A stretch of 44,492 bases of DNA from a virus. A model generated the notes under the pieces. It was not told the DNA's origin. It did no database searches and saw nothing but the letters and a program-made list of their open reading frames with translations. Of the stretch, positions 744 through 11,908 are shown one piece after another. Each line of letters opens with the position of its first letter. Positions within the stretch are counted from its first letter, which is position 1. The stretch covers positions 1 through 44,492 of IMG/VR virus record IMGVR_UViG_3300045988_109867. One strand, 5' to 3'. Made by a program: the position numbers and the translations under genes.

Positions 744-777
744 GCTGAAAAGCCTTGATACAACTAAGATATAGCAT

Positions 778-861: not shown

Positions 862-896
862 CCATTTTAAAATTAGTTAAAGTTTTAAATGTTTAT

Positions 897-963
897 TTAT
901 ACACATTTAAAAAGTTAAAAACTATATAAGCATTGATATAACTGATACATAGCCTGTGTATAA
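897..963. promoter_or_regulatory. two inverted DnaA-box matches flanking an A/T-rich stretch (putative unwinding region of oriV)
   Basis: TTATACACA at 897-905 and its reverse complement TGTGTATAA at 955-963. Both fit the consensus TTATNCACA. They lie between the iteron array and the rep promoter. Confidence 0.5.
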
Positions 964-1010
964 ATATGTGCATAAAAAGTGGGCAAATTCACTAGGAAAA
1001 CGCAAAATTC

Positions 1011-1142
1011 TTTAATGTGAGGTTATTTTTTGTCTGAACACATTGAAATAACTAATCTATAGAAATAGGTGGGGTTAAAGAAAAAATTACTTCACATTAA
1101 GGTTTTATATGTGAGGTTGGGCCATTGACAACTTCACATTAG
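1011..1142. repeat. dispersed iteron copies (direct and inverted) overlapping the rep promoter
   Basis: 1011-1031 is a direct copy with 1 mismatch. 1081-1101 is a perfect reverse complement of the 21-mer. Partial cores lie at 1108-1119 and 1131-1142. Confidence 0.7.
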
Positions 1143-1154
1143 GGGGTGTACAAT
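1125..1154 (+). promoter_or_regulatory. putative rep promoter with an iteron core in the spacer (autoregulation architecture)
   Basis: TTGACA (1125-1130), 18-nt spacer, TACAAT (1149-1154). The spacer contains ACTTCACATTA, an inverted iteron core. Confidence 0.5.
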
Positions 1155-1179
1155 AAATATATACAAGGAGGTGCTAAAA

Positions 1180-2055
1180 ATGAAAAAAAAGTGTGATGCG
1201 ATACAACATAACAATATAGTAAAATACCATAACGATTTAAATTTAGTTCAATTTAAAGATTTTACTACAAGGGAGCTGAATTTGTTTTACTCTATATGCG
1301 CAGTAATGAGAGATCAAGACGAGAATACGATAACATTTACGTTTGATTATCTTAAATCTTTGGCACAAATAGAAGTGCAGAATAAAACAGAATTTGTTGA
1401 GTTAACAAAAAGAATGTACAATAAACTAATTAACTTAAAATTTGAGTATGAAGATGAACACAAATTTGTTAAGTTTGTCTTATTTACTGCTTTTACTGTA
1501 GAAAAGAATGAGGAAATAGTGTCTGTAAAGGTTAATCCTGACTTTAAGTACATTTTAAATAACATAACTTCTAATTTTACTAGATTTGAGCTGCAAGAAT
1601 ATAATAGTCTTAAAAGCAAATACTCTAAGGAGGCATACAGATACATTAAACGTTTTAGAACTACTGGAATGTGGAAGGTAGACCTTGAAAGTTTTAAAAG
1701 AATAATGGGATTACCTTCTGAATATGAAACTAGATTCATTAATAGAGATGTTATATCTGTTATAGAATCCGAATTATCTTCTATAATTAAAGGTTTGAAA
1801 ATTGAGAAATATAGAAAAGGCAGAAGCATAATAGGATATATATTTACATTTAAGAAGGAAGCCATTCCAAAGTCTGTTAAAAAAAATGAGCCACCAGTAA
1901 TAGTAACAAGATCTGCAGAAGAGATAGTAAGAGAAAGGCACGAAAAACAAAAGAAGGCAAACGTCTACAAGACTAAATTCCATAATTTTGATATAGATAA
2001 CTCGGACCAATACTCTGCTGAAAACCTTGAAAAGATAATGAAAAACAGTAAGTAA
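1180..2055 (+). CDS. plasmid replication initiator, Rep_3/RepB-like
   Basis: Start moved to ATG 1180 (SD AAGGAGG 8 nt upstream). The N-terminus (IVKYHNDLNLVQFKDFTTRELNLFYSIC) matches the usual Rep_3 winged-helix opening. The gene is preceded by iterons. Confidence 0.8.
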   Translation: MKKKCDAIQHNNIVKYHNDLNLVQFKDFTTRELNLFYSICAVMRDQDENTITFTFDYLKSLAQIEVQNKTEFVELTKRMYNKLINLKFEYEDEHKFVKFVLFTAFTVEKNEEIVSVKVNPDFKYILNNITSNFTRFELQEYNSLKSKYSKEAYRYIKRFRTTGMWKVDLESFKRIMGLPSEYETRFINRDVISVIESELSSIIKGLKIEKYRKGRSIIGYIFTFKKEAIPKSVKKNEPPVIVTRSAEEIVRERHEKQKKANVYKTKFHNFDIDNSDQYSAENLEKIMKNSK

Positions 2056-2109
2056 GAAATTACTAAATTATGAAAAATGATAAATAGTAAAATATGAAAA
2101 GGAGAAATT

Positions 2110-2919
2110 ATGAAAATGAGAAATGCGACAAAAAAAGGAATAACAATTACTGTAGGTAACCAAAAAGGTGGAGTAAGCAAGACTACAACCACTTGTATGT
2201 TGGCTTATAGTTTGGCAAATAAGGGTTATAAAACTTTAGTAGTAGATTTGGATCCACAGGGAAATGCAACTAAGTTACTTTGGCTAACATCTAAAGAAGA
2301 TAAGCCAATAAAGAACACACTTATGAGTGGGCTGTTAGAAAGAAATCTACAAGATCTAAGATATAACGTTATGGAAAATCTAGACATGCTTCCTTCTCAC
2401 GTTGATTTGGAACTACTTCCTGAATGGTTATTTGAAAATGTAGCAAAAAAGGATAGAGATTTATACCTTGCAAATTTGCTGCAACCTTTAAAGTTAGAAT
2501 ATGATTTTATTTTAATAGACACTCCTCCAATGGCACTTACATTTACAAAAAATGCAGTATGCAGTTCTGACTTTGTTTTAATTGTTTTACAGACACAAGA
2601 AAGAAGTTTAACAGGAGCAGAATATTATATACAGCAGATTGCAAAGTTAAAGGAAGCACACAATCTAGAAGTAGATATAATTGGATTGGTTAGGGTTTTG
2701 GTAAAGAACCAAGGGACAATAGATAACTATATCTCTAATAAGGCTCTGGAGAGCTACGGGGAGTTTGTTTTCAATACGGTAATACCAAACATGGAAAGGC
2801 TAAAAAGATATGATGTAACAGGCATACAGAGAGACGATCACCACGACGATAGAGTTATGGATAAATATAATGATTTAGCTGATGAATTGATAGAAAGGTT
2901 AAAAAAGGAGGAGAGATAA
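2110..2919 (+). CDS. parA: ParA/Soj-type partition ATPase
   Basis: Deviant Walker A GNQKGGVSKTTT, then VDLDPQGN and ILIDTPP motifs. SD AAAGGAG. Confidence 0.9.
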   Translation: MKMRNATKKGITITVGNQKGGVSKTTTTCMLAYSLANKGYKTLVVDLDPQGNATKLLWLTSKEDKPIKNTLMSGLLERNLQDLRYNVMENLDMLPSHVDLELLPEWLFENVAKKDRDLYLANLLQPLKLEYDFILIDTPPMALTFTKNAVCSSDFVLIVLQTQERSLTGAEYYIQQIAKLKEAHNLEVDIIGLVRVLVKNQGTIDNYISNKALESYGEFVFNTVIPNMERLKRYDVTGIQRDDHHDDRVMDKYNDLADELIERLKKEER

Positions 2920-3200
2920 TGGGACTTCTTGAAAATACAAAACGAAAGAAAGTTGAATTTGAAAATACGTTGGCAGATAGTGTGATAAAGACCGATAAAA
3001 AAGAAAAGTTAAATAAAGGAATTAAGATGCCTGTAAGGGTAAAAAATAAACTAGATGTAATTAAAATGCATAAAGGAAAGAAATTTGATTATGAAGTTTT
3101 AGATATGCTTGCAGATTTTTATATAGAAAGTCTACAAGGGAGTGAAAAAGAGAAAATAGAATTTTTATTAAATTACCAAAATGAGAAAATAGATAAATAA
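2919..3200 (+). CDS. small partition partner (putative centromere-binding protein, functional ParB/ParG analogue)
   Basis: 93 aa, translationally coupled to parA (ATAATG). Assigned by position only; the family was not recognised. Confidence 0.5.
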   Translation: MGLLENTKRKKVEFENTLADSVIKTDKKEKLNKGIKMPVRVKNKLDVIKMHKGKKFDYEVLDMLADFYIESLQGSEKEKIEFLLNYQNEKIDK

Positions 3201-3271
3201 GAAATTATGAAATTTAGTAATTTATACATTTATAAAAATATAAAATTAATAATTACGAAATTATGAAATTT
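3201..3271. repeat. exact 15-bp direct repeat GAAATTATGAAATTT (3201-3215, 3257-3271); candidate centromere (parS/parC-like) sites
   Basis: Related GAAATTA(T/C)GAAA copies occur at 2056, 2104, 3250 and 3297, bracketing the parA operon. The A/T-rich background makes chance similarity possible. Confidence 0.4.
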
Positions 3272-3416
3272 ATATTTTTAGAAAATATGTAAAAAATAAA
3301 TTACGAAAAGCATAAAAATGATAATTTATAAAATGCGAAAATACAATATACACAACTATTCCTATAATATATATTTAGGGAATAGTTGGCCACATCCATT
3401 GCAAACACTATATTCT

Positions 3417-3465
3417 AAAAAAAGAAGAGAGCCTACTTTATTTTTAAAAGTTAGCTCTCTTTTTG
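3417..3465. terminator. bidirectional terminator between the convergent par operon and accessory operon
   Basis: AGAGAGC (3426-3432) pairs with GCTCTCT (3454-3460), with an A-run on the left and a T-run on the right. The loop is long (21 nt). Confidence 0.45.
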
Positions 3466-3538
3466 TTTTATTAAGTGCTTTTGCCTTTTGGGAGTTTTCT
3501 GTTAAAGATACTTAAAGGTTATCTGTGTTTTTCTTAAA

Positions 3539-4207
3539 TTATTTATTTACTAACTCAAGGAACTCTTCTAATAATTCTACCCTCATTTTAAGCATTTGTT
3601 CCCAACTGTATTCAGGTTTTGCATATTCACTAATATCGTCTTCGTCAAAACCGTCTGTAAAGCCACATCTTATTTGCCACAACTGTTCTGCATCAAATTC
3701 TGGCTTTGCATATTCACTGATTTCATTTTTAAATCCACCTATAATACCTAATCTTATTTGATACATCTGACTACTATTTAATTCTGGCTTTGCATAAATT
3801 TTTACATCTATACCATCTTCTAAACCTAATCTTATTTGATACATCTGCATTTCATCATATATTGGATCTGCGTACCAGCTTATATCTAATCCTTCTCGTA
3901 AACCTAATCTTATTTGCAACATTTGATCTCCGTTATATTTTGTATTTGCATAAATATTTACATCAACCTTATTTAAAATCCCTGCCTTTATTTGTGTCAT
4001 TTGCCAATCATCAAATTCTGGCTTTGCATAAATACTTACATCTATGCCATCTTCTAAACCTTCTATAATTTGATACATTTGATAGTGATGGAATTCAGGC
4101 TTTGCGTATATTGATACATCTAATCCTTTTTCAAGCCCTTGTTCAATTTTTTCTAATTGAAGTTCATCAAATAAACCACTTTCTTTGTACTCTTCAAAAC
4201 TTTTCAT
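3539..4207 (-). CDS. acidic tandem-repeat protein (about 7 x 26 aa; motif G-L-E-x-G-[IL]-D-V-S-I-Y-A-K-P-E-F-x3-Q-M-x-Q-I-R), family not recognised
   Basis: The track ORF starts at a TTG inside the promoter. The real start is ATG 4207, with SD GGAGG 8 nt upstream. The repeats are read directly from the translation. Stop is TAA. Confidence 0.75.
   Translation of the reverse strand: MKSFEEYKESGLFDELQLEKIEQGLEKGLDVSIYAKPEFHHYQMYQIIEGLEDGIDVSIYAKPEFDDWQMTQIKAGILNKVDVNIYANTKYNGDQMLQIRLGLREGLDISWYADPIYDEMQMYQIRLGLEDGIDVKIYAKPELNSSQMYQIRLGIIGGFKNEISEYAKPEFDAEQLWQIRCGFTDGFDEDDISEYAKPEYSWEQMLKMRVELLEEFLELVNK
3592..4174 (-). repeat. about 78-bp tandem DNA repeats encoding the 26-aa units
   Basis: Recurring TCTGGCTTTGCATA(A/T)... 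and CTAATCTTATTTGATACATCTG blocks. Confidence 0.8.
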
Positions 4208-4248
4208 TTTGCTTACCTCCGTTTTTTTATTATTTATTTTATACTTTA

Positions 4249-4277
4249 ATTGTACCAACGTTACCGTTTGCTGTCAA
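4249..4277 (-). promoter_or_regulatory. sigma-A-type promoter P2 for the repeat-protein gene, with a shared operator in the spacer
   Basis: Minus strand reads TTGACA (4272-4277), 17 nt, TACAAT (4249-4254). The spacer GCAAACGGTAACGTTGG shares a 14-mer with promoter P1 at 8893-8921. Confidence 0.6.
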
Positions 4278-4295
4278 CCTTTTTTTTGGAAAAAA

Positions 4296-4472
4296 TTAAA
4301 CTCTTTTTTTATATTTGCTTTCCACCCATTCTTCATTAATTATCCAAGTTTTACCAATCTTTTTAATATGTTCTTTAGGAATATTATCTTTATTAATATG
4401 CCATCTTAAAGTATTTGCAGCAATATTGTATTCGTTTTCAATTTCTTTTAATGTTTTCCATTTTTCTATCAT
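4296..4472 (-). CDS. 58-aa helix-turn-helix protein (excisionase/MerR-like HTH_17 type); absent from the ORF track (<60 aa)
   Basis: Its ATG overlaps the TGA of the upstream gene (ATGA). Translation: MIEKWKTLKEIENEYNIAANTLRWHINKDNIPKEHIKKIGKTWIINEEWVESKYKKRV. The pattern tLkEi...i..nTl..hi....ip...kiGktw.i matches HTH_17. Stop is TAA at 4296-4298. Confidence 0.65.
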   Translation of the reverse strand: MIEKWKTLKEIENEYNIAANTLRWHINKDNIPKEHIKKIGKTWIINEEWVESKYKKRV

Positions 4473-5005
4473 TTTGTCTCCCTCACATCGTCTGGAATCC
4501 AGCTATTACTAAATTCTTCATCTCTAAATAGTGCTGCTAGTCCGCTTATTTGTTTTAACCTTAGTATTTCGTCAAAATCCATTCCTAAATTTTTACTTAT
4601 CCAAGCATCACTCATTCCACTTTCTGCTAATTCAGCAACTATATTTGTCATTAATTCAATTGAGTGGCTACCTCTAGCTCTGTTGTGTCTTATAGTAGAT
4701 GCCATCCTAGATTCTATTGGTTTATCTATTATAGATACTGGTAGGCACCCCCCCTCTCTATCGAATATATCTTTATGTTTTAACATAATGCTATATCTAT
4801 GGAACCCGTCTACAATTTCATACCTGTCTTTATCTTCTAGATAATAGCAAACTATAGGCATTGTATACCCATCTTCTTTTATGGATTGATATAATAACTT
4901 CATCTCAGGCGGTGCCACTGAATTTGGGTTATAAGCATTTGCTTGTATTTTTTCTAATGGAACTCGTTTTATATTATAAACTGGACTTACATATTCTTTT
5001 ATCAT
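4469..5005 (-). CDS. ParB-like nuclease domain protein, IbrB-like
   Basis: Motifs PLEKIQANAYNPN, IVDGFHRY and TIRHNRARGSH. SD AAGGAGG. Stop is TGA followed directly by TAG. Confidence 0.8.
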   Translation of the reverse strand: MIKEYVSPVYNIKRVPLEKIQANAYNPNSVAPPEMKLLYQSIKEDGYTMPIVCYYLEDKDRYEIVDGFHRYSIMLKHKDIFDREGGCLPVSIIDKPIESRMASTIRHNRARGSHSIELMTNIVAELAESGMSDAWISKNLGMDFDEILRLKQISGLAALFRDEEFSNSWIPDDVRETK

Positions 5006-5018
5006 TTTTGTATCCTCC

Positions 5019-6335
5019 TTATTTTCCTACTACTATATTTTTATACTTTTCTATAGTTTTTTTTCTCTGTTCTTTCTCTTTTTTCGTCTGTGAAAAACCC
5101 ATATATTTACACAAGTGATCATTTTTCATTATGCAAATACACATCCTTTTGTATGATGGGACTGCTTTAAAATCAGTAACATCCGCATCATCTGGATATT
5201 CTTTAAATCTAACAGGTTTTTTATCTGTTTTGTAATTTGTCTTTCCTCCTACTTCTATTTCCAAGCCACAATCTTTTAGTTCTCGTATTGTTGTTTCGTC
5301 AAGTACACCTCCTCGTTCCTTCCAAAACTTAATTGATGTTTCGAATTTTTCTATATAATTTTTTCTTGTTTGTTCTGGCAATGTATTTAGTAGAAATTTT
5401 AAATATGTCTGCCAAGTATGTCCTTTGGGTAATTTTATGTTTTTCCACCCCATTGCAGTTGTCCCTCCATATATTCCTGCGAAGTTAACACCATTAACTC
5501 TTCCAACAAGTTTTGCCCAAGTAGTAGGTTCAACAACCTTGTATACCTTTAGGGTGTCTATGGCACTATCATTAAAAGGACTTGCAACTCTCATTTCATT
5601 TAATTTTAATCCAGCGTAGTAATATAGATCATACAAAGTATTGTAATTATAACTTTTTTTTGCATTTGCTATCCATATGTCTTCAACTCTCCAATCATAT
5701 ATAATGTAGCATTTGCAAACATTTTTATCACTAGGTTCAATGTTTATCCAATGTTGTCTTTTATATTTATTAATATTTTTTTTACTTGAAATTGCTCTGT
5801 ATCTGTTTAATGATTCATCTGTTCTTAACCCTATTATTACCGCCGTCTTGCCTTTCTTTTTTGCTATTTCTTTAGAAAACAAATCTTGAAAATCATAATC
5901 CCATTGTCCTTTTTTAAATTCAAACCAAATGTTATCTTCATTTATAATAAATTCATTGTCTGGCATTTCTCTTGCCCAAATATCTCTTTCATCTTTATCC
6001 CAAGGGATCCAACTATCTTGACTCATATTAACTGCACACTGTGCAGAAATAGGCAAACATATCCAATATTTTTTTATTTCTTTAAAATTATTAAGAAATG
6101 TGTCAGTTACATAGTCTGTAGTAGCTTGATACTGCGCTTCATAATCCAAATGATACATTGATAGTTTGTTTAACATATTATGTTCTTTAGCATAATCATA
6201 TGCAAGATTAAGGCATACTCCACTATCCTTTCCTCCAGAAAATGCAACCATTATGTTGTCAAATTCTTCAAATAGAAATTTTAGCCTTTTTTGTGTTGCA
6301 TCATAAACATTAATATCACAATACTTTTTACCCAT
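5019..6335 (-). CDS. PAPS-reductase/ATP-pyrophosphatase family protein with a long C-terminal extension, IbrA-like (DUF3440-type)
   Basis: PP-loop VAFSGGKDSGV. 438 aa with a Cys-rich C-terminus (CICIMKNDHLCK). Overlaps the SNF2 gene by 8 nt. SD AAAGGAGG. Confidence 0.85.
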   Translation of the reverse strand: MGKKYCDINVYDATQKRLKFLFEEFDNIMVAFSGGKDSGVCLNLAYDYAKEHNMLNKLSMYHLDYEAQYQATTDYVTDTFLNNFKEIKKYWICLPISAQCAVNMSQDSWIPWDKDERDIWAREMPDNEFIINEDNIWFEFKKGQWDYDFQDLFSKEIAKKKGKTAVIIGLRTDESLNRYRAISSKKNINKYKRQHWINIEPSDKNVCKCYIIYDWRVEDIWIANAKKSYNYNTLYDLYYYAGLKLNEMRVASPFNDSAIDTLKVYKVVEPTTWAKLVGRVNGVNFAGIYGGTTAMGWKNIKLPKGHTWQTYLKFLLNTLPEQTRKNYIEKFETSIKFWKERGGVLDETTIRELKDCGLEIEVGGKTNYKTDKKPVRFKEYPDDADVTDFKAVPSYKRMCICIMKNDHLCKYMGFSQTKKEKEQRKKTIEKYKNIVVGK

Positions 6336-7713
6336 TTATAATACCTCCTTTTGCAATATCTATAATATTTTCTTTGTTTAGGCCGTCTAATGTTTTTCTA
6401 AACCACTTAACAAGATACATTTTTCGTCGTAAACAATCATGTATTTGATTTTCTAAAGTGTCTCTTGCTATTATATCTACATAAGTAGTTTCTTTCTCTT
6501 GCCCTATTCTGTGTATCCTATCTTCACTTTGTACTCTTGTAGCATAGTCCCAATCATTATTATAATAAATAATGGTATCACAAAACTGTAAATTTAAACT
6601 ATAACCTGCACAGTCCTTGTTAGCTACAAAGAATTTAGCCTCTTTATAAAACTTGTCTATAGCTTTATTCCTTTTTTTAATTGATATACTACCATCAAAT
6701 CTGCACACATTTTCTTCCCCATATAATTCGCTTAAAACTATAATTATATCATTGATTTCTTCTTTAAATTCGCAAAATATAATTATTTTTTTAGCATCAT
6801 ATTTTTTTATACAATATAACAATTCCTTTATTCTGGGGTTGTCTGAAGGGTTTTTATACCTTTTTTGTTTAAATGTCTGATCACCTTTAAAAGTGTATTC
6901 ATATCCACTTGTTATATTTAGTAAATGTGAAAACATTCTATATATAGTTTCAGGTATATCTTCATCAATTTTATCTATAAAATAATTTGCTACAGAAAGA
7001 TAGTGATCATAGTGTTCTCCCTCTAAATCAAAGTATTCAGAAAAATAATGTTTTTTAGGAAGTTTTATGACATCTTCTTTCTTAACTTGAAATGTATATG
7101 GTTCGATTCTTTCCATAAGAACATCTGTATTAATTAATTTTTCTATAATCCCTTTGCTTGTATCTATAGATAACACATGTTTGTCATAAAACGTATATTT
7201 TGACCTATATCCTAATATTCTCCAATCTAAGAAATACCATTGCCCAAATAGATCTAATTCATCTCTAGATATTGGAGAACCATTTAATATATATCTATAT
7301 TCACAATATTTCCCTAGTCTTATTATATTTTTTGTTCTAATAGCATTAAAATTTTTTATCTTTATGCTTTCATCAACAACTATTAAACATTTGTGTTTTT
7401 GTACGTAATCAAGCAAAAATGAGTTCAAGGCTACGCTTGATGAAAGACTTTCTATTCCTGCTATAACAAAATGATCTAGTCCTTTTTCTATATGTTTTTT
7501 AAATTCTTTATTTATATTATTTTTAGTTGAGCAAGGACATAACCATATTACCTTTTCTATCTTTTTTTTACAAAGTTTTTTATTAATAATTTCTAACATC
7601 GTCCTTGTTTTGCCTGTCCCCATTTCCATATACAATGCTCCAACTTTATATTTATTTAGCTTTTCAACGCACTCCTTTTGGTGTTTAAGCAATTTTGTTT
7701 TGAATTTTAACAT
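6328..7713 (-). CDS. SNF2-family helicase/translocase ATPase
   Basis: Motif I MGTGKT, motif II VVDESIKIKN, motif III LNGSPI, motif VI QSEDRIHRIGQ. The start overlaps the upstream stop (TAATG). Confidence 0.9.
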   Translation of the reverse strand: MLKFKTKLLKHQKECVEKLNKYKVGALYMEMGTGKTRTMLEIINKKLCKKKIEKVIWLCPCSTKNNINKEFKKHIEKGLDHFVIAGIESLSSSVALNSFLLDYVQKHKCLIVVDESIKIKNFNAIRTKNIIRLGKYCEYRYILNGSPISRDELDLFGQWYFLDWRILGYRSKYTFYDKHVLSIDTSKGIIEKLINTDVLMERIEPYTFQVKKEDVIKLPKKHYFSEYFDLEGEHYDHYLSVANYFIDKIDEDIPETIYRMFSHLLNITSGYEYTFKGDQTFKQKRYKNPSDNPRIKELLYCIKKYDAKKIIIFCEFKEEINDIIIVLSELYGEENVCRFDGSISIKKRNKAIDKFYKEAKFFVANKDCAGYSLNLQFCDTIIYYNNDWDYATRVQSEDRIHRIGQEKETTYVDIIARDTLENQIHDCLRRKMYLVKWFRKTLDGLNKENIIDIAKGGIING

Positions 7714-8861
7714 TAGTTATCCTCCAAATCTGGTATTACTATTACTCCCTCTTTTACTAATTTGTCAATTTCTTTAGGTTTTTTAATATCAGTAGTTGTC
7801 TCAACTTCTTCACTTATGCTTAGTATTTTTTCGGCTTGCTTGGTCACTCTAAAATCATTTAATTCTACAAAATCAAGGATTTCATTTTTAAAATTTGGTG
7901 ATACAACAATGCCAGCGCCACTAACCCACCTAGCAGACGGAATTTTCTTTGCTTTATTATATATGCAATTATCAACCCCTTCCCAACTAATAACTAGTAA
8001 TCCATTTTTATAATAGTCTAATAATCTTGGATTTTCTGGTTCAAAATCAGCATTAGTAGCTTTTTCTAAAACTTCTTTTTTATCACATTTTATTATGAAC
8101 CCATTAAGAAGTAGCTTATTCCCAATTTCTGAAGCTCTATCTATTATATCCCCACTTATTTTTTTAATAGTTTTGATCCATGCATTTCTAAAGCTGTTCC
8201 ATTTGAATCCACTGTCTTTTAAAATTTTTATTAATTCTTCATTTTTTGTAGATAATATTTCTATTTCTTGTTTATTTAAAACTATATCTACTACATGATT
8301 ATTATTATTTTCTGGTTTAACTATATTATTGTCATTCCCAATTCCTTTATTTTCTTCTAAAATCTTAAACATAAAATTTTCCATCGCTATAGCTAAAAGT
8401 CTATTAAAATCGTTTCTATTATCTATGTATATAGTGCTTCTAAATTCTTCTGTTATAAACTTGTTCTTAGCATCTAACATTAAATCGTATATTTTTTTTC
8501 TATTTTCTTCGCTTATACGTTTATATGGTTTTATGTCAAAAGTTTTAATTAAATATTCTTTTGTCACATTATCAAATATATTTGCAAAAACGTTATCTAA
8601 AGATATTTCACTTTCGTCAAATTTAAGTCTTATGCTTTCTGCCCATTGAATTTGTTTTGGTGACCCCTGAAGTTTTATATACCCTAGTTCTTCAGATATT
8701 TTTTCTTGTTTTTTGAATTCTTCTTCTCTTTTTTTAGCCTTGCAACTACTGCATAGGTCATTCTCATATTGTTCAAGCTTATATTCTCTATAACTCCACT
8801 TTCCTGTTAAATTAACTGTTTGTACATGTCCACATTTACAAGTTACTGTATACTTAGCCAT
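7713..8861 (-). CDS. 382-aa protein with an N-terminal Zn-ribbon (CKC...CSSC); function unknown
   Basis: Strong SD AAGGAGG. First gene after promoter P1. Contains a GSPKQIQWAESIR motif and two short GF-W-type segments. No catalytic domain recognised. Confidence 0.7.
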   Translation of the reverse strand: MAKYTVTCKCGHVQTVNLTGKWSYREYKLEQYENDLCSSCKAKKREEEFKKQEKISEELGYIKLQGSPKQIQWAESIRLKFDESEISLDNVFANIFDNVTKEYLIKTFDIKPYKRISEENRKKIYDLMLDAKNKFITEEFRSTIYIDNRNDFNRLLAIAMENFMFKILEENKGIGNDNNIVKPENNNNHVVDIVLNKQEIEILSTKNEELIKILKDSGFKWNSFRNAWIKTIKKISGDIIDRASEIGNKLLLNGFIIKCDKKEVLEKATNADFEPENPRLLDYYKNGLLVISWEGVDNCIYNKAKKIPSARWVSGAGIVVSPNFKNEILDFVELNDFRVTKQAEKILSISEEVETTTDIKKPKEIDKLVKEGVIVIPDLEDN

Positions 8862-8892
8862 TTTGCTACCTCCTTATTTATATTGTACTTAC

Positions 8893-8921
8893 ATTATAAC
8901 AAACGTTACCGTTTGCGTCAA
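8893..8921 (-). promoter_or_regulatory. sigma-A-type promoter P1 of the accessory operon, with a palindromic operator filling the spacer
   Basis: Minus strand reads TTGACG (8916-8921), 17 nt, TATAAT (8893-8898). The spacer contains the perfect dyad CAAACG-GTAA-CGTTTG (8900-8915). Confidence 0.65.
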
Positions 8922-8939
8922 GCGAAAAAAAATAAATAA

Positions 8940-8969
8940 ATAAAAAAATGGAGGGGCACCCCCCTCCAT
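8940..8969 (-). terminator. rho-independent terminator after the endolysin gene
   Basis: 9-bp GC-rich stem ATGGAGGGG / CCCCTCCAT with a 4-nt loop, followed on the minus strand by a T-run. Confidence 0.7.
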
Positions 8970-8979
8970 TACTTAATCT

Positions 8980-9783
8980 TTATTTTATTCCCTTGCAAAA
9001 TCTTGCGGCAACATATCCAAACTTACCCTTATGGTACTCTATTTTGTACCAAGTAGAGTCTGTTGTATGCACAACTTCATGCACATATATTTTACTTCCA
9101 TGTCTGTAGCTACTAACTATTCTAGAACTTGCACTTGGCTTTTCTCTAACGTTTAATACATCTCCTGGAGTGCTAGTTAATACATAATAACCTTTAAATG
9201 GTTTGGCTGGCTTAGATTGGCTTGTAGGAACTTGTGCATTACCTACCATTTTACAATCGGATGTTTTGCTAGTGTCTATAATCATTCTTCTGTTTTTCTT
9301 TATTTCTTCTAAGAACCAATCCCATTTAGAACTATTACCACCCCAACCACCTGGACAGTCTTTTCTTGTTGCATCCCAATGTCTACATACTCTAGCGTTA
9401 GGATATTGTCTTAAAAGTTCTTTAACTAATTCCACGGTATTAAATAACATTTGGTTGTTATAGCCTTTATTTACACACATTTCTATACTTATAGAATTGT
9501 AGTTTGTGCAGCCATTTAAAGCTACACCATAACCTTGATTGCCCCCTACTGCATAGGCTACTGTGGTATCCCCTACTATCTGTATTATTTTACTATGGTC
9601 TACAAAATAATGAGCCGACGCCCCTACACTATGGTTTTGAAAATAAAAGTAATGGTTTAATGCAGTTGCGGTTTCTTCTTCGTTTGCAGTCCAGTGTATA
9701 GCTATATATTGGACTGCACTTTTAGGTCTCCTTCCTCCAAAATTATTCCCATTAGTTATAGGTTTCCATATAAACTTAGTCAT
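8980..9783 (-). CDS. endolysin: N-acetylmuramoyl-L-alanine amidase (Amidase_2/PGRP) with a C-terminal SH3b domain
   Basis: Motifs IAIHWTAN, SAHYFVD, SISIEMC and CRHWDATRKDCPG. The C-terminal segment GDVLNVREKPS...WYKIEY...GYV is SH3b-like. Confidence 0.9.
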   Translation of the reverse strand: MTKFIWKPITNGNNFGGRRPKSAVQYIAIHWTANEEETATALNHYFYFQNHSVGASAHYFVDHSKIIQIVGDTTVAYAVGGNQGYGVALNGCTNYNSISIEMCVNKGYNNQMLFNTVELVKELLRQYPNARVCRHWDATRKDCPGGWGGNSSKWDWFLEEIKKNRRMIIDTSKTSDCKMVGNAQVPTSQSKPAKPFKGYYVLTSTPGDVLNVREKPSASSRIVSSYRHGSKIYVHEVVHTTDSTWYKIEYHKGKFGYVAARFCKGIK

Positions 9784-9784
9784 T

Positions 9785-10012
9785 TTATCTTACCACCTTT
9801 CTGTCCTTTGCTCCTCTAGTAGTTGGATCTACTACTACTCCTATTACAGCCATAACGGTAGTAGTTAAAAGATATGGATTCTGTATTGTATCTATAATTA
9901 ATTGCAATACCTTATCCCAGCTTGTTAGAGTACTAGCTTCCACTTGTAAAGCAGTTAAAATTACACCTACAAGTCCTATCCAAAAATACGGATTCTTTAT
10001 TCTGTCTTTCAT
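9785..10012 (-). CDS. holin (Phage_holin_1 / phiLC3-like)
   Basis: Start moved to ATG 10012 (SD GGAGA). Has two TM segments and the C-terminal VVDPTTRGAKD motif. Lies immediately upstream of the endolysin. Confidence 0.75.
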   Translation of the reverse strand: MKDRIKNPYFWIGLVGVILTALQVEASTLTSWDKVLQLIIDTIQNPYLLTTTVMAVIGVVVDPTTRGAKDRKVVR

Positions 10013-10038
10013 TAAACCATCTCCATTTCTAAAAAATT

Positions 10039-10380
10039 TTAATAATATATTTCTACTGGTAATTCCATGCATTCTTCGTACAACTTTTTTGCAACTCCAT
10101 TGCCACCTAGATTAGAATAAGATTTAAAAAGGTATTCTAAATCTCTAATTTCTTCTCTTTTTATTTTCCCTCTGTTTTTTATATCTGTAGCTTCTTTGCA
10201 AATGTTGTAATAAAGCATGGTTTTAATTCCCATTTTTATTGCTTCTTGTTCTTTTTTATTTTCTTGGTCTCTTTTTTTATTTTCTTTAACAATATTTTTT
10301 ACTGCTACGGTTAAACCAGTAAGGATAATCCCAAATACTGCTTGTATCCACCACTCTATAATAAAATCTTTAATTACCAT
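10039..10380 (-). CDS. membrane-anchored protein, first gene of the lysis cassette (function unknown)
   Basis: One N-terminal TM helix, then a charged region. Family not recognised. Confidence 0.6.
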   Translation of the reverse strand: MVIKDFIIEWWIQAVFGIILTGLTVAVKNIVKENKKRDQENKKEQEAIKMGIKTMLYYNICKEATDIKNRGKIKREEIRDLEYLFKSYSNLGGNGVAKKLYEECMELPVEIYY

Positions 10381-10415
10381 ATATCGCCTCTATTCTTTTG
10401 TGTGTATGTAAACTG

Positions 10416-10439
10416 AAAACGTTGGAATTTCAACGTTTT
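10416..10439. repeat. perfect 9-bp inverted repeat AAAACGTTG-N6-CAACGTTTT upstream of the lysis cassette
   Basis: Read directly from the sequence. Lies 36 nt upstream of start 10380. Shares the AAACGTT core with the P1/P2 operator. Confidence 0.6.
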
Positions 10440-10542
10440 ATCGATAACTTTGTAAGAACGATTATAAGGAACTTTAATTTAGTTATTGATAGTTAGTACC
10501 TATAAAAAGCTTAAAATCGATTCTACAAGGTCGTGTTTTTGC

Positions 10543-10576
10543 AAAAAAAAGAGAAGGGCGTAGAGTTTCCCTTCTC
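10543..10576 (-). terminator. rho-independent terminator between the tail-fibre genes and the lysis cassette
   Basis: Stem GAGAAGGG / CCCTTCTC (8 bp) with a 10-nt loop. T8 follows on the minus strand. Confidence 0.65.
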
Positions 10577-10641
10577 GATTGCAATTATTAACTTTTTTTA
10601 ATTAGATTATAGAGATTCCACTCCCTTCTTGGTTTTAGCTA

Positions 10642-10773
10642 TTACTCTTCATCAATCAAATGTTCTAATTCCATAGAAATTAGTAATGCTCTAACCTTTT
10701 CTTTCATTGGCTTTGGAGTCTGGCTAAACTTTCTAACTCCCGCCTGTATGCAAGTTACATAACATAGTGCCAT
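10642..10773 (-). CDS. 43-aa protein in the XkdX position
   Basis: Start moved to ATG 10773 (SD AAAGGAGGTG). Last gene of the tail operon. Family assignment is tentative. Confidence 0.5.
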   Translation of the reverse strand: MALCYVTCIQAGVRKFSQTPKPMKEKVRALLISMELEHLIDEE

Positions 10774-10831
10774 ATCAAAATCACCTCCTTTCAATACGAA
10801 TTTTATTATTTTAATTTTGAATAATAATCTT

Positions 10832-11269
10832 TTAAACATTTTTTGTACTGCCCGTCATAACCATATCTGCAAGTTCTGTTATTGCAGTACTTAACTCTAG
10901 TTTTGTTTGGTCCAACTCTTTTTTTGTATCTGCAAGTTCTTCTTTTAAAAGTTCTGTTTCTGTTTTTGGCGGTTCTCCAGGCTCTTGCGTTTCTGGGTCT
11001 ATCCACTTAAATATTAATTTGTGCGGTTCTTTAGAAACATCTACTGTATAATAATTTGATTTATTTTCTTTAAGCAATTTATCTAATTCCCCATATTTAA
11101 GTTGTATTACCTCAATCTGTTCTTTATTGTATTTGCTTAGTTCGGCATAATTTAAAAAATCTTCTTCTACTGTTGTTTCTTTTACATATCCTTTACAATC
11201 TCCAGTTTCTAAGATTATATTACCATTAGATTTTAAATAGTATATTCTTGTTCCTAACTCTATTAACAT
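10832..11269 (-). CDS. hypothetical virion-module protein with a C-terminal coiled coil
   Basis: 145-aa ORF in operon register after the fibre genes. Contains ELLKEELADTKKELDQTKLEL. Confidence 0.65.
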   Translation of the reverse strand: MLIELGTRIYYLKSNGNIILETGDCKGYVKETTVEEDFLNYAELSKYNKEQIEVIQLKYGELDKLLKENKSNYYTVDVSKEPHKLIFKWIDPETQEPGEPPKTETELLKEELADTKKELDQTKLELSTAITELADMVMTGSTKNV

Positions 11270-11284
11270 CTATTTGTTCCTCCT

Positions 11285-11908
11285 TTACTCAAACGCAATC
11301 CAGTTCCTTATTTTTATATTGCTTTCAAAGTTGCTTGTACCAGCCTTAAAATATACAGGATAGAAGTTTTTTTCAACTAAAAAGTCTTTAGTAACTCTAT
11401 TCCCATTGTTAAAAACCTCTTCTATTGGAGTCCCTTCTTCATATTTTGTAGGTGCTTTATTCCCAAATAGCCATTTATAGCTAAAAAACGGCTCATAAAA
11501 CAAATTGAATGTATAGATAGCACGCCCGTTTGCCTGGTATGTTAAATAGCAATAATTTTGTTTAACGTCTTGAATTGATATATATTGGCCACTAAATGTA
11601 GTCCCCTCTAGTTCTGTAATAATAATTCTAGGTTTAAAACTTAAATTTGACAGGTCTATACAAACAACTGTTGCCCCATATCCACTAGATGCACCAGTAA
11701 TGCTTACTCCCACGCTACTTGTGTACCCACCTTCTGCCCATTTTTTTCTGCTGTTAATCAAATTTCGTATTTCTCTAGGGACTTCGCTTAATTTCGAAAT
11801 ACTGCTTCCACCGCTTCTTTTTATTTCACTTGCTATACTATCTACTTTATTACTTAAATTTATTTGCAATCGTTCTGTTCGCTCTGTCTGTTCTTTTATT
11901 GTAGCCAT
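11285..11908 (-). CDS. hypothetical tail-fibre-associated protein
   Basis: 207-aa ORF packed tightly between the fibre and downstream genes. No family recognised. Confidence 0.65.
   Translation of the reverse strand: MATIKEQTERTERLQINLSNKVDSIASEIKRSGGSSISKLSEVPREIRNLINSRKKWAEGGYTSSVGVSITGASSGYGATVVCIDLSNLSFKPRIIITELEGTTFSGQYISIQDVKQNYCYLTYQANGRAIYTFNLFYEPFFSYKWLFGNKAPTKYEEGTPIEEVFNNGNRVTKDFLVEKNFYPVYFKAGTSNFESNIKIRNWIAFE

What the first reader, a model, noticed from the sequence alone, without database searches (positions are those of the whole stretch)
3539..8921. Self-promoted accessory operon: Zn-ribbon protein / SNF2 ATPase / IbrA-like PAPS reductase / IbrB-like ParB nuclease / mini-HTH (+ acidic repeat protein) - candidate undescribed DNA-modification or conflict system
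Seen: this block lies between the lysis cassette and the plasmid partition genes and belongs to neither the virion nor the replication programme. Five minus-strand genes are translationally coupled (TAATG at 7713, an 8-nt overlap at 6328-6335, ATGA at 4469-4472) and all have strong SD sites. They follow the endolysin terminator and have their own near-consensus promoter (TTGACG-17-TATAAT), so they can be expressed independently of late transcription, for example in the plasmid-prophage state. By eye the block also looks more A/T-rich than the structural genes (not quantified). The products are: (1) a 382-aa CxC...CxxC ribbon protein; (2) a 461-aa SNF2 ATPase with all helicase motifs; (3) a 438-aa PP-loop (SGGKDS) PAPS-reductase-fold protein with an IbrA-type C-terminal extension; (4) a 178-aa ParB-nuclease-like protein (DGFHR, RHNRARG); (5) a 58-aa HTH. 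Established: IbrA/IbrB pairs are known only genetically, as activators of prophage eib genes in E. coli. The PAPS-reductase fold is the catalytic fold of DndC/SspD in DNA phosphorothioation, and DndB is a ParB-like (DGQHR) protein. SNF2-type motors occur in DISARM- and Dpd-type modification/defence systems. Inference: a fixed IbrAB-like pair joined to an SNF2 translocase and a Zn-ribbon protein on a phage-plasmid looks like an uncharacterised ATP-dependent DNA-marking (self-protection/anti-restriction) or defence module. No methyltransferase, cysteine desulfurase or known effector nuclease is present, so the chemistry cannot be read from the sequence.
Basis: partly seen in the sequence, partly recalled or inferred. 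Interest (0 to 1): 0.85.

Follow-up and report, generated by a model that had tools for sequence, protein, structure and literature searches.

The report
Phage SNF2–IbrA–IbrB counter-defence-type operon
This phage-plasmid carries its own self-regulated operon built around a very widespread but still unexplained phage gene trio (a DNA motor, an ATP-using "PAPS-reductase-like" enzyme and a ParB-like DNA-binding protein), and its layout suggests it helps the phage evade bacterial immunity, probably by acting on DNA.

Summary
Six tightly packed minus-strand genes (3539-8861) follow the endolysin terminator. They have a near-consensus promoter and strong ribosome-binding sites, and GC is 0.289 against about 0.335 for the rest of the phage.

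Pfam confirms SNF2, PAPS_reduct+DUF3440 (IbrA-like) and ParB_N (IbrB-like).

The block is a member of a very large family.
- In 163 related loci, IbrA-IbrB are adjacent in 146 of 159.
- An SNF2 gene lies directly upstream in 100 of them (63/83 viral).
- The trio occurs in virulent phages, once with the gene order swapped.
- The Zn-ribbon protein is a lineage-specific accessory (about 10 loci).
- IbrAB alone is a core E. coli pair (ybdNM). It also sits on 710 plasmids and in Bacteroidales chromosomes.

New here:
- The same 16-bp palindrome sits in the spacer of both promoters, upstream of the operon and of the repeat protein.
- The Zn-ribbon protein has an AcrIF23-like region.
- In phage D4276 the validated AcrIIA5 is coupled to the same trio.

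The layout is therefore that of an acr-aca operon. Most likely this is a counter-defence, DNA-directed adenylation/modification machine. Sulfur chemistry is disfavoured because no cysteine is invariant. The function remains unproven.

The parts
8947..8970 (-). Intrinsic terminator closing the lysis/late operon, just upstream of the module
   Evidence: 10-bp G+C-rich stem, 4-nt loop and a T-run. Sequence read.
8893..8921 (-). Promoter P1: TTGACG-17-TATAAT with a TG extended -10
   Evidence: 11/12 match, the best site in 3200-9100. Sequence.
8900..8915 (.). Operator O1: the palindrome CAAACG-GTAA-CGTTTG inside the P1 spacer
   Evidence: One of only two sites in the 44.5-kb window with up to 3 mismatches. 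Expected by chance: 0.15. Analogous spacer palindromes occur in L076, L002 and phage D4276.
7713..8861 (-). 382-aa accessory protein. It has an N-terminal Zn ribbon, an AcrIF23-like region (about residues 56-156; motifs GSPKQIQWAESIR and YIDNRN) and C-terminal alpha/beta domains of unknown fold.
   Evidence: No Pfam family. phrog_16123 matches only the N-terminus. The family profile hits AcrIF23 (7fia) at E 3.6e-5. Foldseek gives 7fia prob 0.97, TM 0.41, but E 0.45. AF2 pLDDT is 77. The protein is found in only about 10 of 163 loci.
6328..7713 (-). 461-aa minimal SWI2/SNF2 ATPase (dsDNA translocase core) with no extra domains
   Evidence: Pfam SNF2-rel_dom plus Helicase_C. Full-length match to the Sulfolobus Rad54-like core 1z63. 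phrog_62 at 8e-85. Homologs lie directly upstream of IbrA in 100 of 159 loci.
5019..6335 (-). 438-aa IbrA-like PP-loop enzyme (PAPS_reduct fold plus DUF3440)
   Evidence: DUF3440 at 3.3e-92 and PAPS_reduct at 2.5e-9. The FSGGKDSG PP-loop is invariant. In the AF2 model the N-domain matches PAPS reductase, CysD and FMN adenylyltransferase folds at E about 1e-6; the C-domain has no match. It is 30% identical to E. coli YbdN.
4469..5005 (-). 178-aa IbrB-like protein: ParB/Srx N-domain (DGFHR, RHNRARG) plus a C-terminal HTH
   Evidence: ParB_N at 2.1e-6. phrog_2159 at 4e-81. It is 51% identical to E. coli YbdM, annotated 'IbrB-like'. Typical phage homologs are 75-88% identical. It is adjacent to IbrA in 146 of 159 loci.
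4296..4472 (-). 58-aa basic HTH protein (pI 9.5) at the end of the operon; candidate Aca-like autorepressor
   Evidence: Weak HTH_17 hit at 0.008. phrog_2655 at 1.5e-6. ATGA coupling to IbrB. Homologs at 62% identity in L002 and L076, whose modules also have spacer palindromes. The regulator role is inferred.
4249..4277 (-). Promoter P2: TTGACA-17-TACAAT (TG extended -10), upstream of the repeat protein
   Evidence: 11/12 match. Sequence.
4255..4270 (.). Operator O2: CAAACGGTAACGTTGG in the P2 spacer, one mismatch from O1
   Evidence: family D8.
3539..4207 (-). 222-aa acidic repeat protein with seven repeats of about 26 aa (DVSIYAKPEFxxxQMxQIRLGLExG). It belongs to the same regulon through O2. 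Function unknown.
   Evidence: pI 4.36, with 45 D+E against 22 K+R. 78-nt DNA periodicity. No Pfam, PHROG or PADLOC family. Called as 222 aa by an independent gene caller.
3412..3470 (-). Probable terminator ending the module, convergent with the parA operon
   Evidence: RNA hairpin of -18 kcal/mol, z = -4.2 against shuffles, followed by a U-run.

Best explanation
This is an autoregulated accessory operon of the acr-aca type. Its core is the widespread phage trio SNF2-IbrA-IbrB, and it most likely serves the phage-plasmid as a counter-defence device that acts on DNA.

**Proposed working**
1. On entry, or in the plasmid state, host sigma-70 RNA polymerase fires P1 and P2 independently of late transcription.
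2. The terminal 58-aa HTH protein accumulates, binds the shared 16-bp palindrome in both promoter spacers and throttles expression.
3. IbrB, a ParB/Srx NTP-binding domain plus HTH, binds DNA and partners IbrA.
4. The minimal SNF2 motor translocates on dsDNA and spreads or gives access to the complex.
5. IbrA uses its canonical PP-loop to adenylate a moiety of the nucleic acid. That moiety is then resolved by a nucleophile, leaving a mark or processing event that blunts host nucleases.
6. The 382-aa protein docks on the SNF2 motor or blocks a host helicase-nuclease through its AcrIF23-like region.
7. The acidic repeat protein is a co-regulated helper.

**Shown:** gene content, coupling, the promoters and shared operator, conservation of the trio, and the links to Acr genes.

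**Inferred:** every biochemical step, the target, the regulator role of the HTH protein, and the benefit to the phage.
For: **Functional linkage of the trio**
- IbrA-IbrB are adjacent in 146 of 159 loci, and SNF2 lies directly upstream in 100.
- The trio is kept with permuted order (SNF2-IbrB-IbrA) in the Flavobacterium phage FCL-2.

**Benefit to the phage rather than host defence**
- The trio is present in FCL-2, for which lysogeny was not detected, and in S. thermophilus phage D4276.
- PADLOC finds no defence system and no effector nuclease.

**Anti-defence context**
- In D4276 the validated AcrIIA5 overlaps by 1 nt the start of the small-protein-SNF2-IbrA-IbrB-HTH string.
- Here the first gene has an AcrIF23-like region (profile E 3.6e-5; Foldseek prob 0.97).
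- PMC13551039 reports distant acrIF23 homologs heading Aca-regulated operons with helicases, PAPS reductases in such operons, and one Aca controlling its own and a neighbouring operon.
- A vibriophage PAPS-domain::Dam fusion, transferred together with a second gene of unknown function, confers anti-Dnd activity.

**Regulatory layout**
- The same palindrome lies in the spacers of P1 and P2. There are only two sites in 44.5 kb, against 0.15 expected by chance.
- The pattern of terminator, consensus promoter with palindrome, module and terminal small HTH recurs in L076, L002 and D4276.

**Position in the genome**
- The module sits right after the lysis cassette in four cultured Bacillota phages.
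- It is inverted at the same locus in L001.
- Its GC is lower than that of the rest of the genome.

**DNA as the target**
- The SNF2 is a dsDNA-translocase core.
- IbrB combines ParB_N with an HTH.
- ParB-like partners of DNA-modifying enzymes are known: DndB and DpdB, and ParB-methyltransferase fusions (phrog_498).
- The phosphorothioation core is likewise a PAPS-reductase-like enzyme plus an ATPase plus a DNA-recognition protein.

**Adenylation chemistry**
- The SGGKDS PP-loop is invariant.
- The fold matches adenylyl-transfer enzymes.
Against: - No DNA modification, nuclease resistance or anti-defence phenotype has been shown for any IbrA/IbrB protein in the literature I could search.
- The only genetics for IbrAB, known to me from memory and echoed by the SEED label, is activation of prophage eib genes. 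That points to transcription.
- IbrAB without SNF2 is a near-universal chromosomal pair in E. coli (ybdNM). In Bacteroidales it sits between gdh and mdh. A pure phage counter-defence role would not predict either.
- No cysteine is invariant in IbrA. The best-known precedent chemistry, sulfur insertion, is therefore unlikely, and the chemistry remains open.
- The AcrIF23 similarity is modest and covers only about 100 residues. The Foldseek E-value is 0.45.
- The HTH call is below the Pfam threshold, and binding to the palindrome is untested.
- The three cultured Bacillota phages have a non-homologous small gene after IbrB.
Confidence: 0.45

Rival explanations
1. Transcriptional co-activation or anti-silencing. 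IbrB would act as a ParB-like NTP-switched DNA clamp, helped by IbrA and the SNF2 remodeller. It would displace nucleoid proteins or repressors and switch on phage or host genes, as the original ibrAB genetics suggests.
For: [quoted passage not shown]
- IbrB has a ParB N-domain plus an HTH.
- SNF2 enzymes remodel protein-DNA complexes (established knowledge).
- ybdNM sits next to the LysR regulator gene citR/ybdO in E. coli.
- Chromosomal copies in E. coli and Bacteroidales fit a regulatory role.
Against: - It gives no role for a strictly conserved PP-loop ATP-pyrophosphatase active site.
- The window already encodes a separate late regulator (phrog_36).
- The module sits in Acr-type operons rather than next to regulated genes.
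- IbrB is about 80% identical across phages of different hosts, which is unusual for a sequence-specific regulator.
Confidence: 0.2
2. Defence or inter-element competition. The module would mark the element's own DNA, or scan DNA, and exclude superinfecting phages or plasmids. The ParB-like domain would act as a nuclease, as in Dnd, Ssp, Dpd, DISARM or Zorya-type systems.
For: - The SNF2 core resembles ZorD, DpdE, DrmD and BrxH helicase modules.
- ParB/Srx domains can be DNases or NTPases.
- The module is carried by a temperate phage-plasmid, with a promoter independent of the late operon.
Against: - No PADLOC system is present, and none of the partner genes are found (ZorAB, DrmABC, DpdA, PglZ, DndD/E, SspB/C).
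- The trio is present in virulent phages.
- It is coupled to a validated anti-CRISPR.
- No dedicated effector recurs in 163 neighbourhoods.
Confidence: 0.12
3. Replication, recombination or repair helper. An SNF2 annealing-helicase-like motor, with the 382-aa protein as a HARP-like adaptor, plus a ParB-like nickase would process phage replication or recombination intermediates.
For: - BFVD matches of the 382-aa model include a phage 'HepA-related protein' (E 2e-4) and helicase N-terminal regions.
- phrog_62 is filed under DNA metabolism.
Against: - The module is separate from the replication module (DnaD/DnaC-like, RecE/RecT, SSB, RusA at 33-41 kb).
- Phages CR28 and Pika have their own replicative helicase as well.
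- There is no Pfam HARP hit, and the internal duplication is not significant.
- It does not explain IbrA.
Confidence: 0.1
4. RNA (for example tRNA) or nucleotide modification. IbrA would act like TilS, TtuA or QueC-type PP-loop enzymes on tRNA or on a nucleotide pool, to evade anticodon nucleases or nucleotide-based immunity.
For: - Foldseek also lists tRNA thiolases, TilS, GMP synthetase and LarE, at E about 3e-4.
- ParB/Srx proteins include kinases and NTPases.
- Sequence conservation across phyla is extreme, which fits a universal small substrate.
Against: The obligate partners are a dsDNA translocase and a DNA-binding ParB-HTH protein. No tRNA-binding domain was detected.
Confidence: 0.08
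5. Auxiliary metabolic gene: a genuine PAPS reductase that boosts host sulfur assimilation. This is the usual annotation of phage 'PAPS reductases'.
For: Pfam PAPS_reduct and the CysH fold match. This reading is common in virome papers.
Against: - The protein carries a canonical ATP-pyrophosphatase PP-loop, SGGKDS.
- It has no CysH-type C-terminal ECGLH motif and no invariant cysteine.
- It has a 200-aa DUF3440 extension.
- It is always paired with a ParB-like protein and usually with an SNF2.
- No other sulfur-pathway genes recur nearby.
Confidence: 0.03

Closest known systems
IbrA/IbrB of E. coli ECOR-9 and the core E. coli pair YbdN/YbdM
   Same: - Same two-protein architecture: PAPS_reduct+DUF3440 followed by a ParB_N 'IbrB-like' protein, adjacent and co-oriented.
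- IbrB is 51% identical to YbdM and IbrA is 30% identical to YbdN, with the PP-loop and most invariant residues kept.
   Different: - The E. coli pairs have no SNF2, no AcrIF23-like protein and no terminal HTH.
- They lie in a chromosome next to a LysR regulator gene, or on IS-flanked plasmid segments.
- Their mechanism is also unknown, so membership gives a name but no function.
DNA phosphorothioation modules: DndBCDE, SspBCD and BREX type 4 BrxP
   Same: Same logic of parts: a PAPS-reductase-fold PP-loop enzyme, an ATPase and a DNA-recognising protein. In Dnd there is also a ParB-superfamily protein, DndB.
   Different: - IbrA is not a DndC: 24 bits against a cut-off of 290, and only a partial 85-residue PADLOC match.
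- The ATPase is an SNF2, not an ABC or ORC-like protein.
- No DndE or SspB is present, and no cysteine desulfurase in cis.
- No cysteine is invariant in IbrA, whereas DndC has a characteristic cysteine dyad.
Vibriophage PAPS-domain::Dam fusion conferring anti-Dnd activity (Piel et al., bioRxiv 10.1101/2021.05.05.442762)
   Same: A phage-encoded PAPS-reductase-fold protein in a variable, anti-defence region, with experimental evidence of countering a host defence.
   Different: That protein is a fusion to a DNA adenine methyltransferase. It lacks DUF3440, an IbrB partner and an SNF2. The effect was shown for two genes transferred together.
acr-aca operons, including those headed by distant AcrIF23 homologs (PMC13551039)
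   Same: - A strong promoter with an inverted-repeat operator.
- An Acr(-like) gene first and a small HTH gene last.
- The same operator on a neighbouring operon.
- Helicases and PAPS reductases as cargo.
   Different: - No anti-CRISPR activity has been shown for the 382-aa protein.
- The AcrIF23-like part is only about 100 of its 382 residues.
- The HTH matches no known Aca.
- The cargo is a conserved three-enzyme machine rather than small inhibitor proteins.
Dpd 7-deazaguanine DNA modification system (DpdA/DpdB with SNF2-like DpdE)
   Same: A ParB-like NTPase assists a DNA-modifying enzyme. The SNF2 here aligns over its full length with a DpdE model, E 1.7e-20.
   Different: No DpdA-type transglycosylase and no preQ0 synthesis genes are present. 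IbrB does not match any PADLOC model. In Dpd the SNF2 belongs to the restriction half.

Membership tests
IbrA/IbrB (YbdN/YbdM) gene pair | Protein with PAPS_reduct (PF01507) followed by DUF3440 (PF11922) | tested here: met
   DUF3440 E 3.3e-92 and PAPS_reduct E 2.5e-9. YbdN has the same architecture.
IbrA/IbrB (YbdN/YbdM) gene pair | Adjacent, co-oriented ParB_N 'IbrB-like' protein | tested here: met
   ParB_N E 2.1e-6. 51% identical to YbdM, annotated 'IbrB-like'. A 13-nt gap follows IbrA.
IbrA/IbrB (YbdN/YbdM) gene pair | Genetic activity: activation of prophage eib genes | not testable with these tools
   Needs an experiment. The original paper was not in the library.
Phage SNF2-IbrA-IbrB trio | Minimal SNF2 ATPase of the phrog_62 type directly upstream of IbrA on the same strand | tested here: met
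   8-nt overlap. Homologous SNF2 in 100 of 159 loci. phrog_62 at 8e-85.
Phage SNF2-IbrA-IbrB trio | Small partner protein of about 107 aa (phrog_5809/27058 family) upstream of SNF2 | tested here: not met
   The profile finds nothing in the six-frame translation of the window. The 382-aa protein takes that position and is not homologous.
Dnd phosphorothioation (DndBCDE) | DndC equivalog (TIGR03183, cut-off 290 bits) | tested here: not met
   24.3 bits. The PADLOC DndC model matches only residues 153-238.
Dnd phosphorothioation (DndBCDE) | DndD ABC/SMC-like ATPase and DndE | tested here: not met
   No PADLOC or NCBIfam hit for any protein of the block except generic SNF2 matches.
Dnd phosphorothioation (DndBCDE) | Conserved cysteines in the PP-loop enzyme for sulfur relay or an Fe-S cluster | tested here: not met
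   No invariant Cys among six divergent IbrA homologs. The C-terminal dyad is replaced by A/M in phage phiCs5676-1.
Ssp / BREX type 4 phosphorothioation | SspB/SspC/SspD, or BrxP with PglZ/BrxC | tested here: not met
   No PADLOC hits to these models.
acr-aca operon | Strong promoter carrying an inverted-repeat operator | tested here: met
   P1 11/12 with CAAACG-GTAA-CGTTTG in the spacer, and the same site in P2.
acr-aca operon | Small HTH regulator gene at the 3' end of the operon | tested here: inconclusive
   The 58-aa basic protein hits HTH_17 at 0.008, below cut-off, and phrog_2655 at 1.5e-6. No similarity to solved Aca structures. Binding is untested.
acr-aca operon | A known anti-CRISPR or a homolog in the operon | tested here: inconclusive
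   The profile of the 382-aa family against AcrIF23 (7fia) gives E 3.6e-5 over two collinear motifs. Foldseek gives prob 0.97 but E 0.45. Activity is untested.
Assimilatory PAPS reductase (CysH) | C-terminal catalytic cysteine motif (ECGLH) | tested here: not met
   The motif is absent and no Cys is invariant. The fold similarity covers the N-domain only.
Plasmid partition ParB | Encoded with ParA and acting on a centromere | tested here: not met
   ParA (2110-2919) is followed by its own 93-aa partner and repeats at 3201-3300. IbrB homologs occur in non-plasmid phages and chromosomes.
SMARCAL1-type annealing helicase (HARP + SNF2) | HARP domain | tested here: inconclusive
   No Pfam HARP hit. 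The only support is a BFVD match to a phage protein named 'HepA-related'. Internal repeat E 0.4.

The most novel reading that the evidence does not exclude
SNF2-IbrA-IbrB is a new class of phage counter-defence machine. In this reading a ParB-like NTP switch and an Snf2 motor carry a PP-loop enzyme along the phage's own DNA. The enzyme installs a so far undetected, non-sulfur covalent mark by adenylation chemistry. The two-gene core has been domesticated as ybdNM in nearly every E. coli. Here the machine is wired into an Acr-style self-limiting operon together with an AcrIF23-like protein and an acidic repeat protein.
Probability: 0.25. Interest if true: 0.9.

Novelty: new variant of a known kind. 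Interest (0 to 1): 0.66.

Why it matters
IbrA/IbrB-type pairs are among the most conserved accessory genes of phages.
- IbrB is about 80% identical across many phages and 51% identical to an E. coli core protein.
- IbrA is about 50% identical across bacterial phyla.

Even so, they are still named after a 20-year-old genetic phenotype, or mislabelled as sulfur-metabolism genes. This analysis adds three points.
- In phages the pair is usually joined to an SNF2 motor.
- The trio sits in anti-CRISPR-style, self-repressing operons, once directly coupled to a validated Acr.
- Sulfur chemistry is unlikely.

Together these turn an annotation puzzle into a set of direct experiments. If the trio marks DNA, that would add a new modification pathway and a new anti-restriction strategy. 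It would also give a function to the E. coli y-genes ybdN and ybdM, and correct a widespread AMG annotation in virome studies.

Tried and rejected
- **Close DNA relatives.** Megablast of the block against the phage collection and of 1-12000 against the plasmid collection found nothing.
- **Known defence systems.** PADLOC gave only generic SNF2 matches and a partial DndC match.
- **Solved structures by sequence.** Nothing for IbrA, IbrB or the HTH protein.
- **Fold of DUF3440.** The Foldseek PDB search of the IbrA model matched only the N-terminal PAPS-reductase-like domain.
- **Domain fusions of IbrA.** Eight unusually long representatives of the 50%-identity clusters carried only PAPS_reduct+DUF3440 and no informative fusion. 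One had an ABC_tran fragment that is probably chimeric.
- **A conserved gene after IbrB.** The downstream small genes are often HTH, XRE or AbrB-like but are not homologous to one another.
- **Homology between the 382-aa protein and the ~107-aa SNF2 partner family.** Not supported. There is only a weak C-terminal tail alignment, E 0.003, prob 10%.
- **Internal HARP-like duplication in the 382-aa protein.** Not significant.
- **Family assignment** for the repeat protein, the small partner proteins, p135 and p68. No Pfam family for any of them. PHROGs gives only two unnamed families (phrog_5809, phrog_27058), for the small partner proteins.
- **Literature.** No functional study of phage IbrA/IbrB or of the SNF2 linkage was found. 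Maindola 2014 and Iyer 2013 are not held. The cap on papers stopped me reading the ybdO/ybdNM paper.
- **Rejected: IbrB as the plasmid's ParB.** ParA has its own small partner and repeats.
- **Rejected: the sulfur-AMG reading.** The protein has a PP-loop, no CysH motif, and obligate DNA-binding partners.

Full report
**1. What is in the sequence**

On the minus strand, one search lists five ORFs:
- 382 aa (7713-8861)
- 461 aa (6328-7713)
- 438 aa (5019-6335)
- 178 aa (4469-5005)
- 58 aa (4296-4472)

The junctions are TAATG, an 8-nt overlap (ATGGGTAA), a 13-nt gap and ATGA. Every gene has a GGAGG-type ribosome-binding site.

The block starts after a strong terminator (8970-8947) that closes the holin/endolysin cassette. 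Its own promoter is TTGACG-17-TATAAT, preceded by TG (8921-8893), and is the best sigma-70-like site in the region.

GC is 0.289 for the block, against 0.336 for late genes and 0.334 for early genes. Third-position GC is 0.17-0.24 against 0.25-0.32.

Two corrections are needed.
- The 'acidic repeat protein' starts at ATG 4207, not TTG 4258. It is 222 aa, has pI 4.36 and contains seven repeats of about 26 aa.
- It has its own promoter, TTGACA-17-TACAAT, at 4277-4249. An independent gene call on an identical metagenome contig agrees.

A hairpin of -18 kcal/mol followed by a U-run at 3470-3412 probably ends the unit.

**2. The element**

The window is a complete phage-plasmid of about 44.5 kb, assembled independently at least four times.

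It encodes:
- a Rep3 initiator, ParA with a 93-aa partner, and a LexA-like repressor on the plus strand;
- an antirepressor, RecE/RecT, DnaD- and DnaC-like loaders, RusA, SSB, an ArpU-like regulator, HNH, TerS/TerL, structural genes and lysis genes on the minus strand.

The block under study belongs to none of these modules.

**3. Protein identities**

*Family and fold assignments.*
- Pfam confirms SNF2-rel_dom + Helicase_C, PAPS_reduct + DUF3440 (E 3e-92) and ParB_N.
- The SNF2 is a bare motor core that aligns end to end with the Sulfolobus Rad54-like enzyme 1z63.
- IbrA keeps a canonical PP-loop, FSGGKDSG.
- An AlphaFold model of IbrA (pLDDT 82) matches PAPS reductase, CysD and FMN adenylyltransferase folds over its N-terminal 240 residues. 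The DUF3440 half has no match.
- IbrB has the ParB/Srx motifs YEIVDGFHRY and TIRHNRARG, plus a C-terminal HTH.
- The HTH assignment of the 58-aa protein is weak: HTH_17 at E 0.008 and phrog_2655 at 1.5e-6.

*What the block is not.*
- PADLOC finds no known defence system. It gives only generic SNF2 similarity to ZorD, DpdE, DrmD and BrxH, and an 85-residue match to DndC.
- On NCBI's DndC model IbrA scores 24 bits against a cut-off of 290.

**4. Does the gene set recur?**

I fetched 83 viral or phage loci and 80 loci from one-genome-per-species bacteria by similarity to IbrA, then clustered all neighbouring ORFs.

| Feature | Count |
|---|---|
| IbrB directly follows IbrA | 146 of 159 loci |
| Homologous SNF2 directly precedes IbrA | 100 loci (63 of 83 viral, 37 of 80 genomic) |
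| Zn-ribbon protein family present | about 10 loci |
| Small protein family of about 107 aa before the SNF2 | 69 loci |

- The Zn-ribbon protein always accompanies the longer SNF2 subtype.
- The small family comprises three clusters, two of them matching phrog_5809 and phrog_27058, joined by hhalign at 96-97% probability. It is usually translationally coupled to the SNF2. It is absent from the window and is not homologous to the 382-aa protein.
- The gene after IbrB is often a small HTH, XRE or AbrB-like protein, but from different families.

In the lytic Flavobacterium phage FCL-2 the unannotated gp07 is an SNF2 of the same family (27% identity, E 8e-29). It precedes IbrB and then IbrA, between the terminase and the portal. 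The trio therefore survives a change of gene order and of phylum, which is good evidence of functional linkage.

The fixed unit is thus SNF2-IbrA-IbrB. The Zn-ribbon protein, the HTH and the repeat protein are lineage-specific additions.

**5. The pair alone is far more widespread**

- IbrA is 48-60% identical across Bacillota, Bacteroidota, Verrucomicrobiota, Pseudomonadota and Lentisphaerota.
- IbrB is typically about 80% identical among thousands of clusters.
- E. coli ybdN and ybdM are such a pair. Both have the same domains. YbdM is 51% identical to IbrB and YbdN is 30% identical to IbrA. They are present in 5421 of 5426 complete genomes, next to citR/ybdO and without an SNF2.
- Bacteroidales carry p135-IbrA-IbrB between gdh and mdh.
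- 710 plasmids carry the pair, often flanked by IS elements.

The system is therefore not 'undescribed' as a gene family. I did, however, find no paper that explains it. [quoted passage not shown]

**6. New evidence on context**

(a) *A shared operator.* A 16-bp palindrome, CAAACG-GTAA-CGTTTG, lies in the -35/-10 spacer of P1. With one mismatch it also lies in the spacer of P2. These are the only two sites in the window, against 0.15 expected by chance. The five-gene operon and the repeat-protein gene therefore form one regulon, distinct from the immunity region.

(b) *The layout recurs.* Relatives that carry homologs of the 58-aa protein have a consensus promoter with a different palindrome in the spacer, immediately before the first gene of their module (L076, L002).

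(c) *Link to a validated anti-CRISPR.* In S. thermophilus phage D4276 a terminator is followed by a TTGACA-17-TATAAT promoter overlapped by GTTGAC-ATAC-GTCAAC. The genes that follow are a small ORF, the validated anti-CRISPR AcrIIA5, the small partner protein, SNF2, IbrA, IbrB and a 72-aa gene whose product reads as an XRE-type HTH. AcrIIA5 overlaps the next gene by 1 nt.

(d) *An AcrIF23-like region.* A profile of the 382-aa family hits the anti-CRISPR AcrIF23 (PDB 7fia) at E 3.6e-5, through two collinear motifs: LxG[ST]xKQxxWAExIR and FWIxNRN. AcrIE7 gives a weak hit. Foldseek independently ranks 7fia with probability 0.97 and TM 0.41, although its E-value is 0.45.

(e) *Position in the genome.* In four cultured Bacillota phages the module sits immediately after the lysin, before the early genes. 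In L001 it lies at the same parA-endolysin locus but inverted.

(f) *Literature.*
- PMC13551039 reports distant acrIF23 homologs at the head of Aca-regulated operons associated with helicases. It also reports PAPS reductases within such operons, and single Aca proteins controlling their own and a neighbouring operon.
- A vibriophage PAPS-domain::Dam fusion, transferred with one more gene, confers resistance to Dnd.

**7. Chemistry**

The known phosphorothioation cores combine a PAPS-reductase-fold enzyme, an ATPase and a DNA-recognition protein. ParB-like proteins accompany DNA-modifying enzymes in Dnd and Dpd and are fused to methyltransferases in phages (phrog_498). The trio has the same logic of parts.

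An alignment of six divergent IbrA homologs nevertheless shows no invariant cysteine.
- C93 varies.
- The C-terminal C399/C409 dyad is replaced by Ala/Met in C. scindens phage phiCs5676-1, which has the full module. It is missing in FCL-2.

As far as I know, every sulfur-inserting PP-loop enzyme depends on cysteines, either as persulfide carriers or as Fe-S ligands. I therefore regard phosphorothioation or thiolation by IbrA as unlikely.

The invariant residues are the PP-loop, DxEA, RxxESxxR, DW, DxW and several Arg, Asn and Lys residues. They point to substrate adenylation with an unknown acceptor and nucleophile.

**8. Verdict**

The most likely reading (0.45) is an Acr-style, self-limiting operon that delivers a DNA-directed SNF2/ParB-like/PP-loop machine for the benefit of the phage-plasmid, with an AcrIF23-like accessory protein and a co-regulated acidic repeat protein.

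| Rival | Confidence |
|---|---|
| Transcriptional co-activation or anti-silencing, the only published genetics | 0.2 |
| Defence or exclusion | 0.12 |
| Replication or recombination helper | 0.1 |
| RNA or nucleotide modification | 0.08 |
| Sulfur AMG | 0.03 |

None of the biochemical steps is shown.

The finding is real and of above-average interest. It is a variant of a very common, already named but unexplained module, not a one-off new system. Its value lies in making the IbrAB/YbdNM question experimentally tractable.

Noticed in passing
window 3201-3300: Four overlapping direct repeats (GAAATTATGAAATTTA...) lie in the A/T-rich gap just downstream of parA and its 93-aa partner. They are probably the partition centromere or Rep3 iterons of the plasmid-prophage.
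   Followed up: no
L165 5003-6825 (E. coli chromosome): The uncharacterised E. coli genes ybdN and ybdM are an IbrA/IbrB-type pair. They are present in 5421 of 5426 complete genomes, next to citR/ybdO. YbdM is 51% identical to the phage-plasmid IbrB.
   Followed up: partly
L082 5981-9977 (S. thermophilus phage D4276): The validated anti-CRISPR AcrIIA5 is translationally coupled to a small protein, an unannotated SNF2 ('hypothetical protein' D4276_030), IbrA, IbrB and a small gene whose product reads as an HTH. The string lies behind a consensus promoter overlapped by the palindrome GTTGAC-ATAC-GTCAAC.
   Followed up: partly
L170 4145-7009 (Flavobacterium phage FCL-2): gp07, annotated as hypothetical, is an SNF2 ATPase of the same family as the window's. 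Here the order is SNF2-IbrB-IbrA, inserted between the terminase and the portal of a phage with no sign of lysogeny.
   Followed up: yes
L013 5794-6117, L002 4771-5106, L048 6546-6827 and 66 other loci: One family of proteins of about 95-125 aa, with no Pfam family, sits directly upstream of the SNF2 and is usually coupled to it. Two of its three clusters match phrog_5809 and phrog_27058. It is probably an SNF2 partner subunit. It is absent from the window.
   Followed up: partly
L116 9600-12000 and eight other Bacteroides/Phocaeicola loci: Chromosomal p135-IbrA-IbrB lies between glutamate dehydrogenase and malate dehydrogenase genes, without an SNF2. The 135-aa protein has no family. In a few loci it sits between SNF2 and IbrA.
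   Followed up: partly
L001 2925-10114: A related phage-plasmid has the Zn-ribbon/SNF2/IbrA/IbrB cassette at the same parA-endolysin locus but in the opposite orientation. This suggests the cassette moves or inverts as a unit.
   Followed up: no
window 7713-8861, C-terminus; homologs in A2: The 382-aa family ends in a conserved acidic tail (V-I/L-x-D-L-x-D-D/E). The unrelated small SNF2-partner proteins end in a similar (D/E)-x-L-K/R-R tail. hhalign aligns only these tails (E 0.003). The tail may be a shared docking peptide for the SNF2.
   Followed up: no
window 3539-4207: The 222-aa protein made of seven repeats DVSIYAKPEFxxxQMxQIRLGLExG is strongly acidic (pI 4.36) and matches no family in Pfam, PHROGs or PADLOC. 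tblastn found no homolog in the first 83 related loci. Whether it is a DNA mimic is unknown.
   Followed up: partly
L166 6971-8820; L167 6001-7835: IbrA-IbrB pairs lie on an E. coli IncF conjugative plasmid and on a C. perfringens plasmid, each with an IS3-family transposase gene a few kb away. This suggests the pair moves as a small unit.
   Followed up: no
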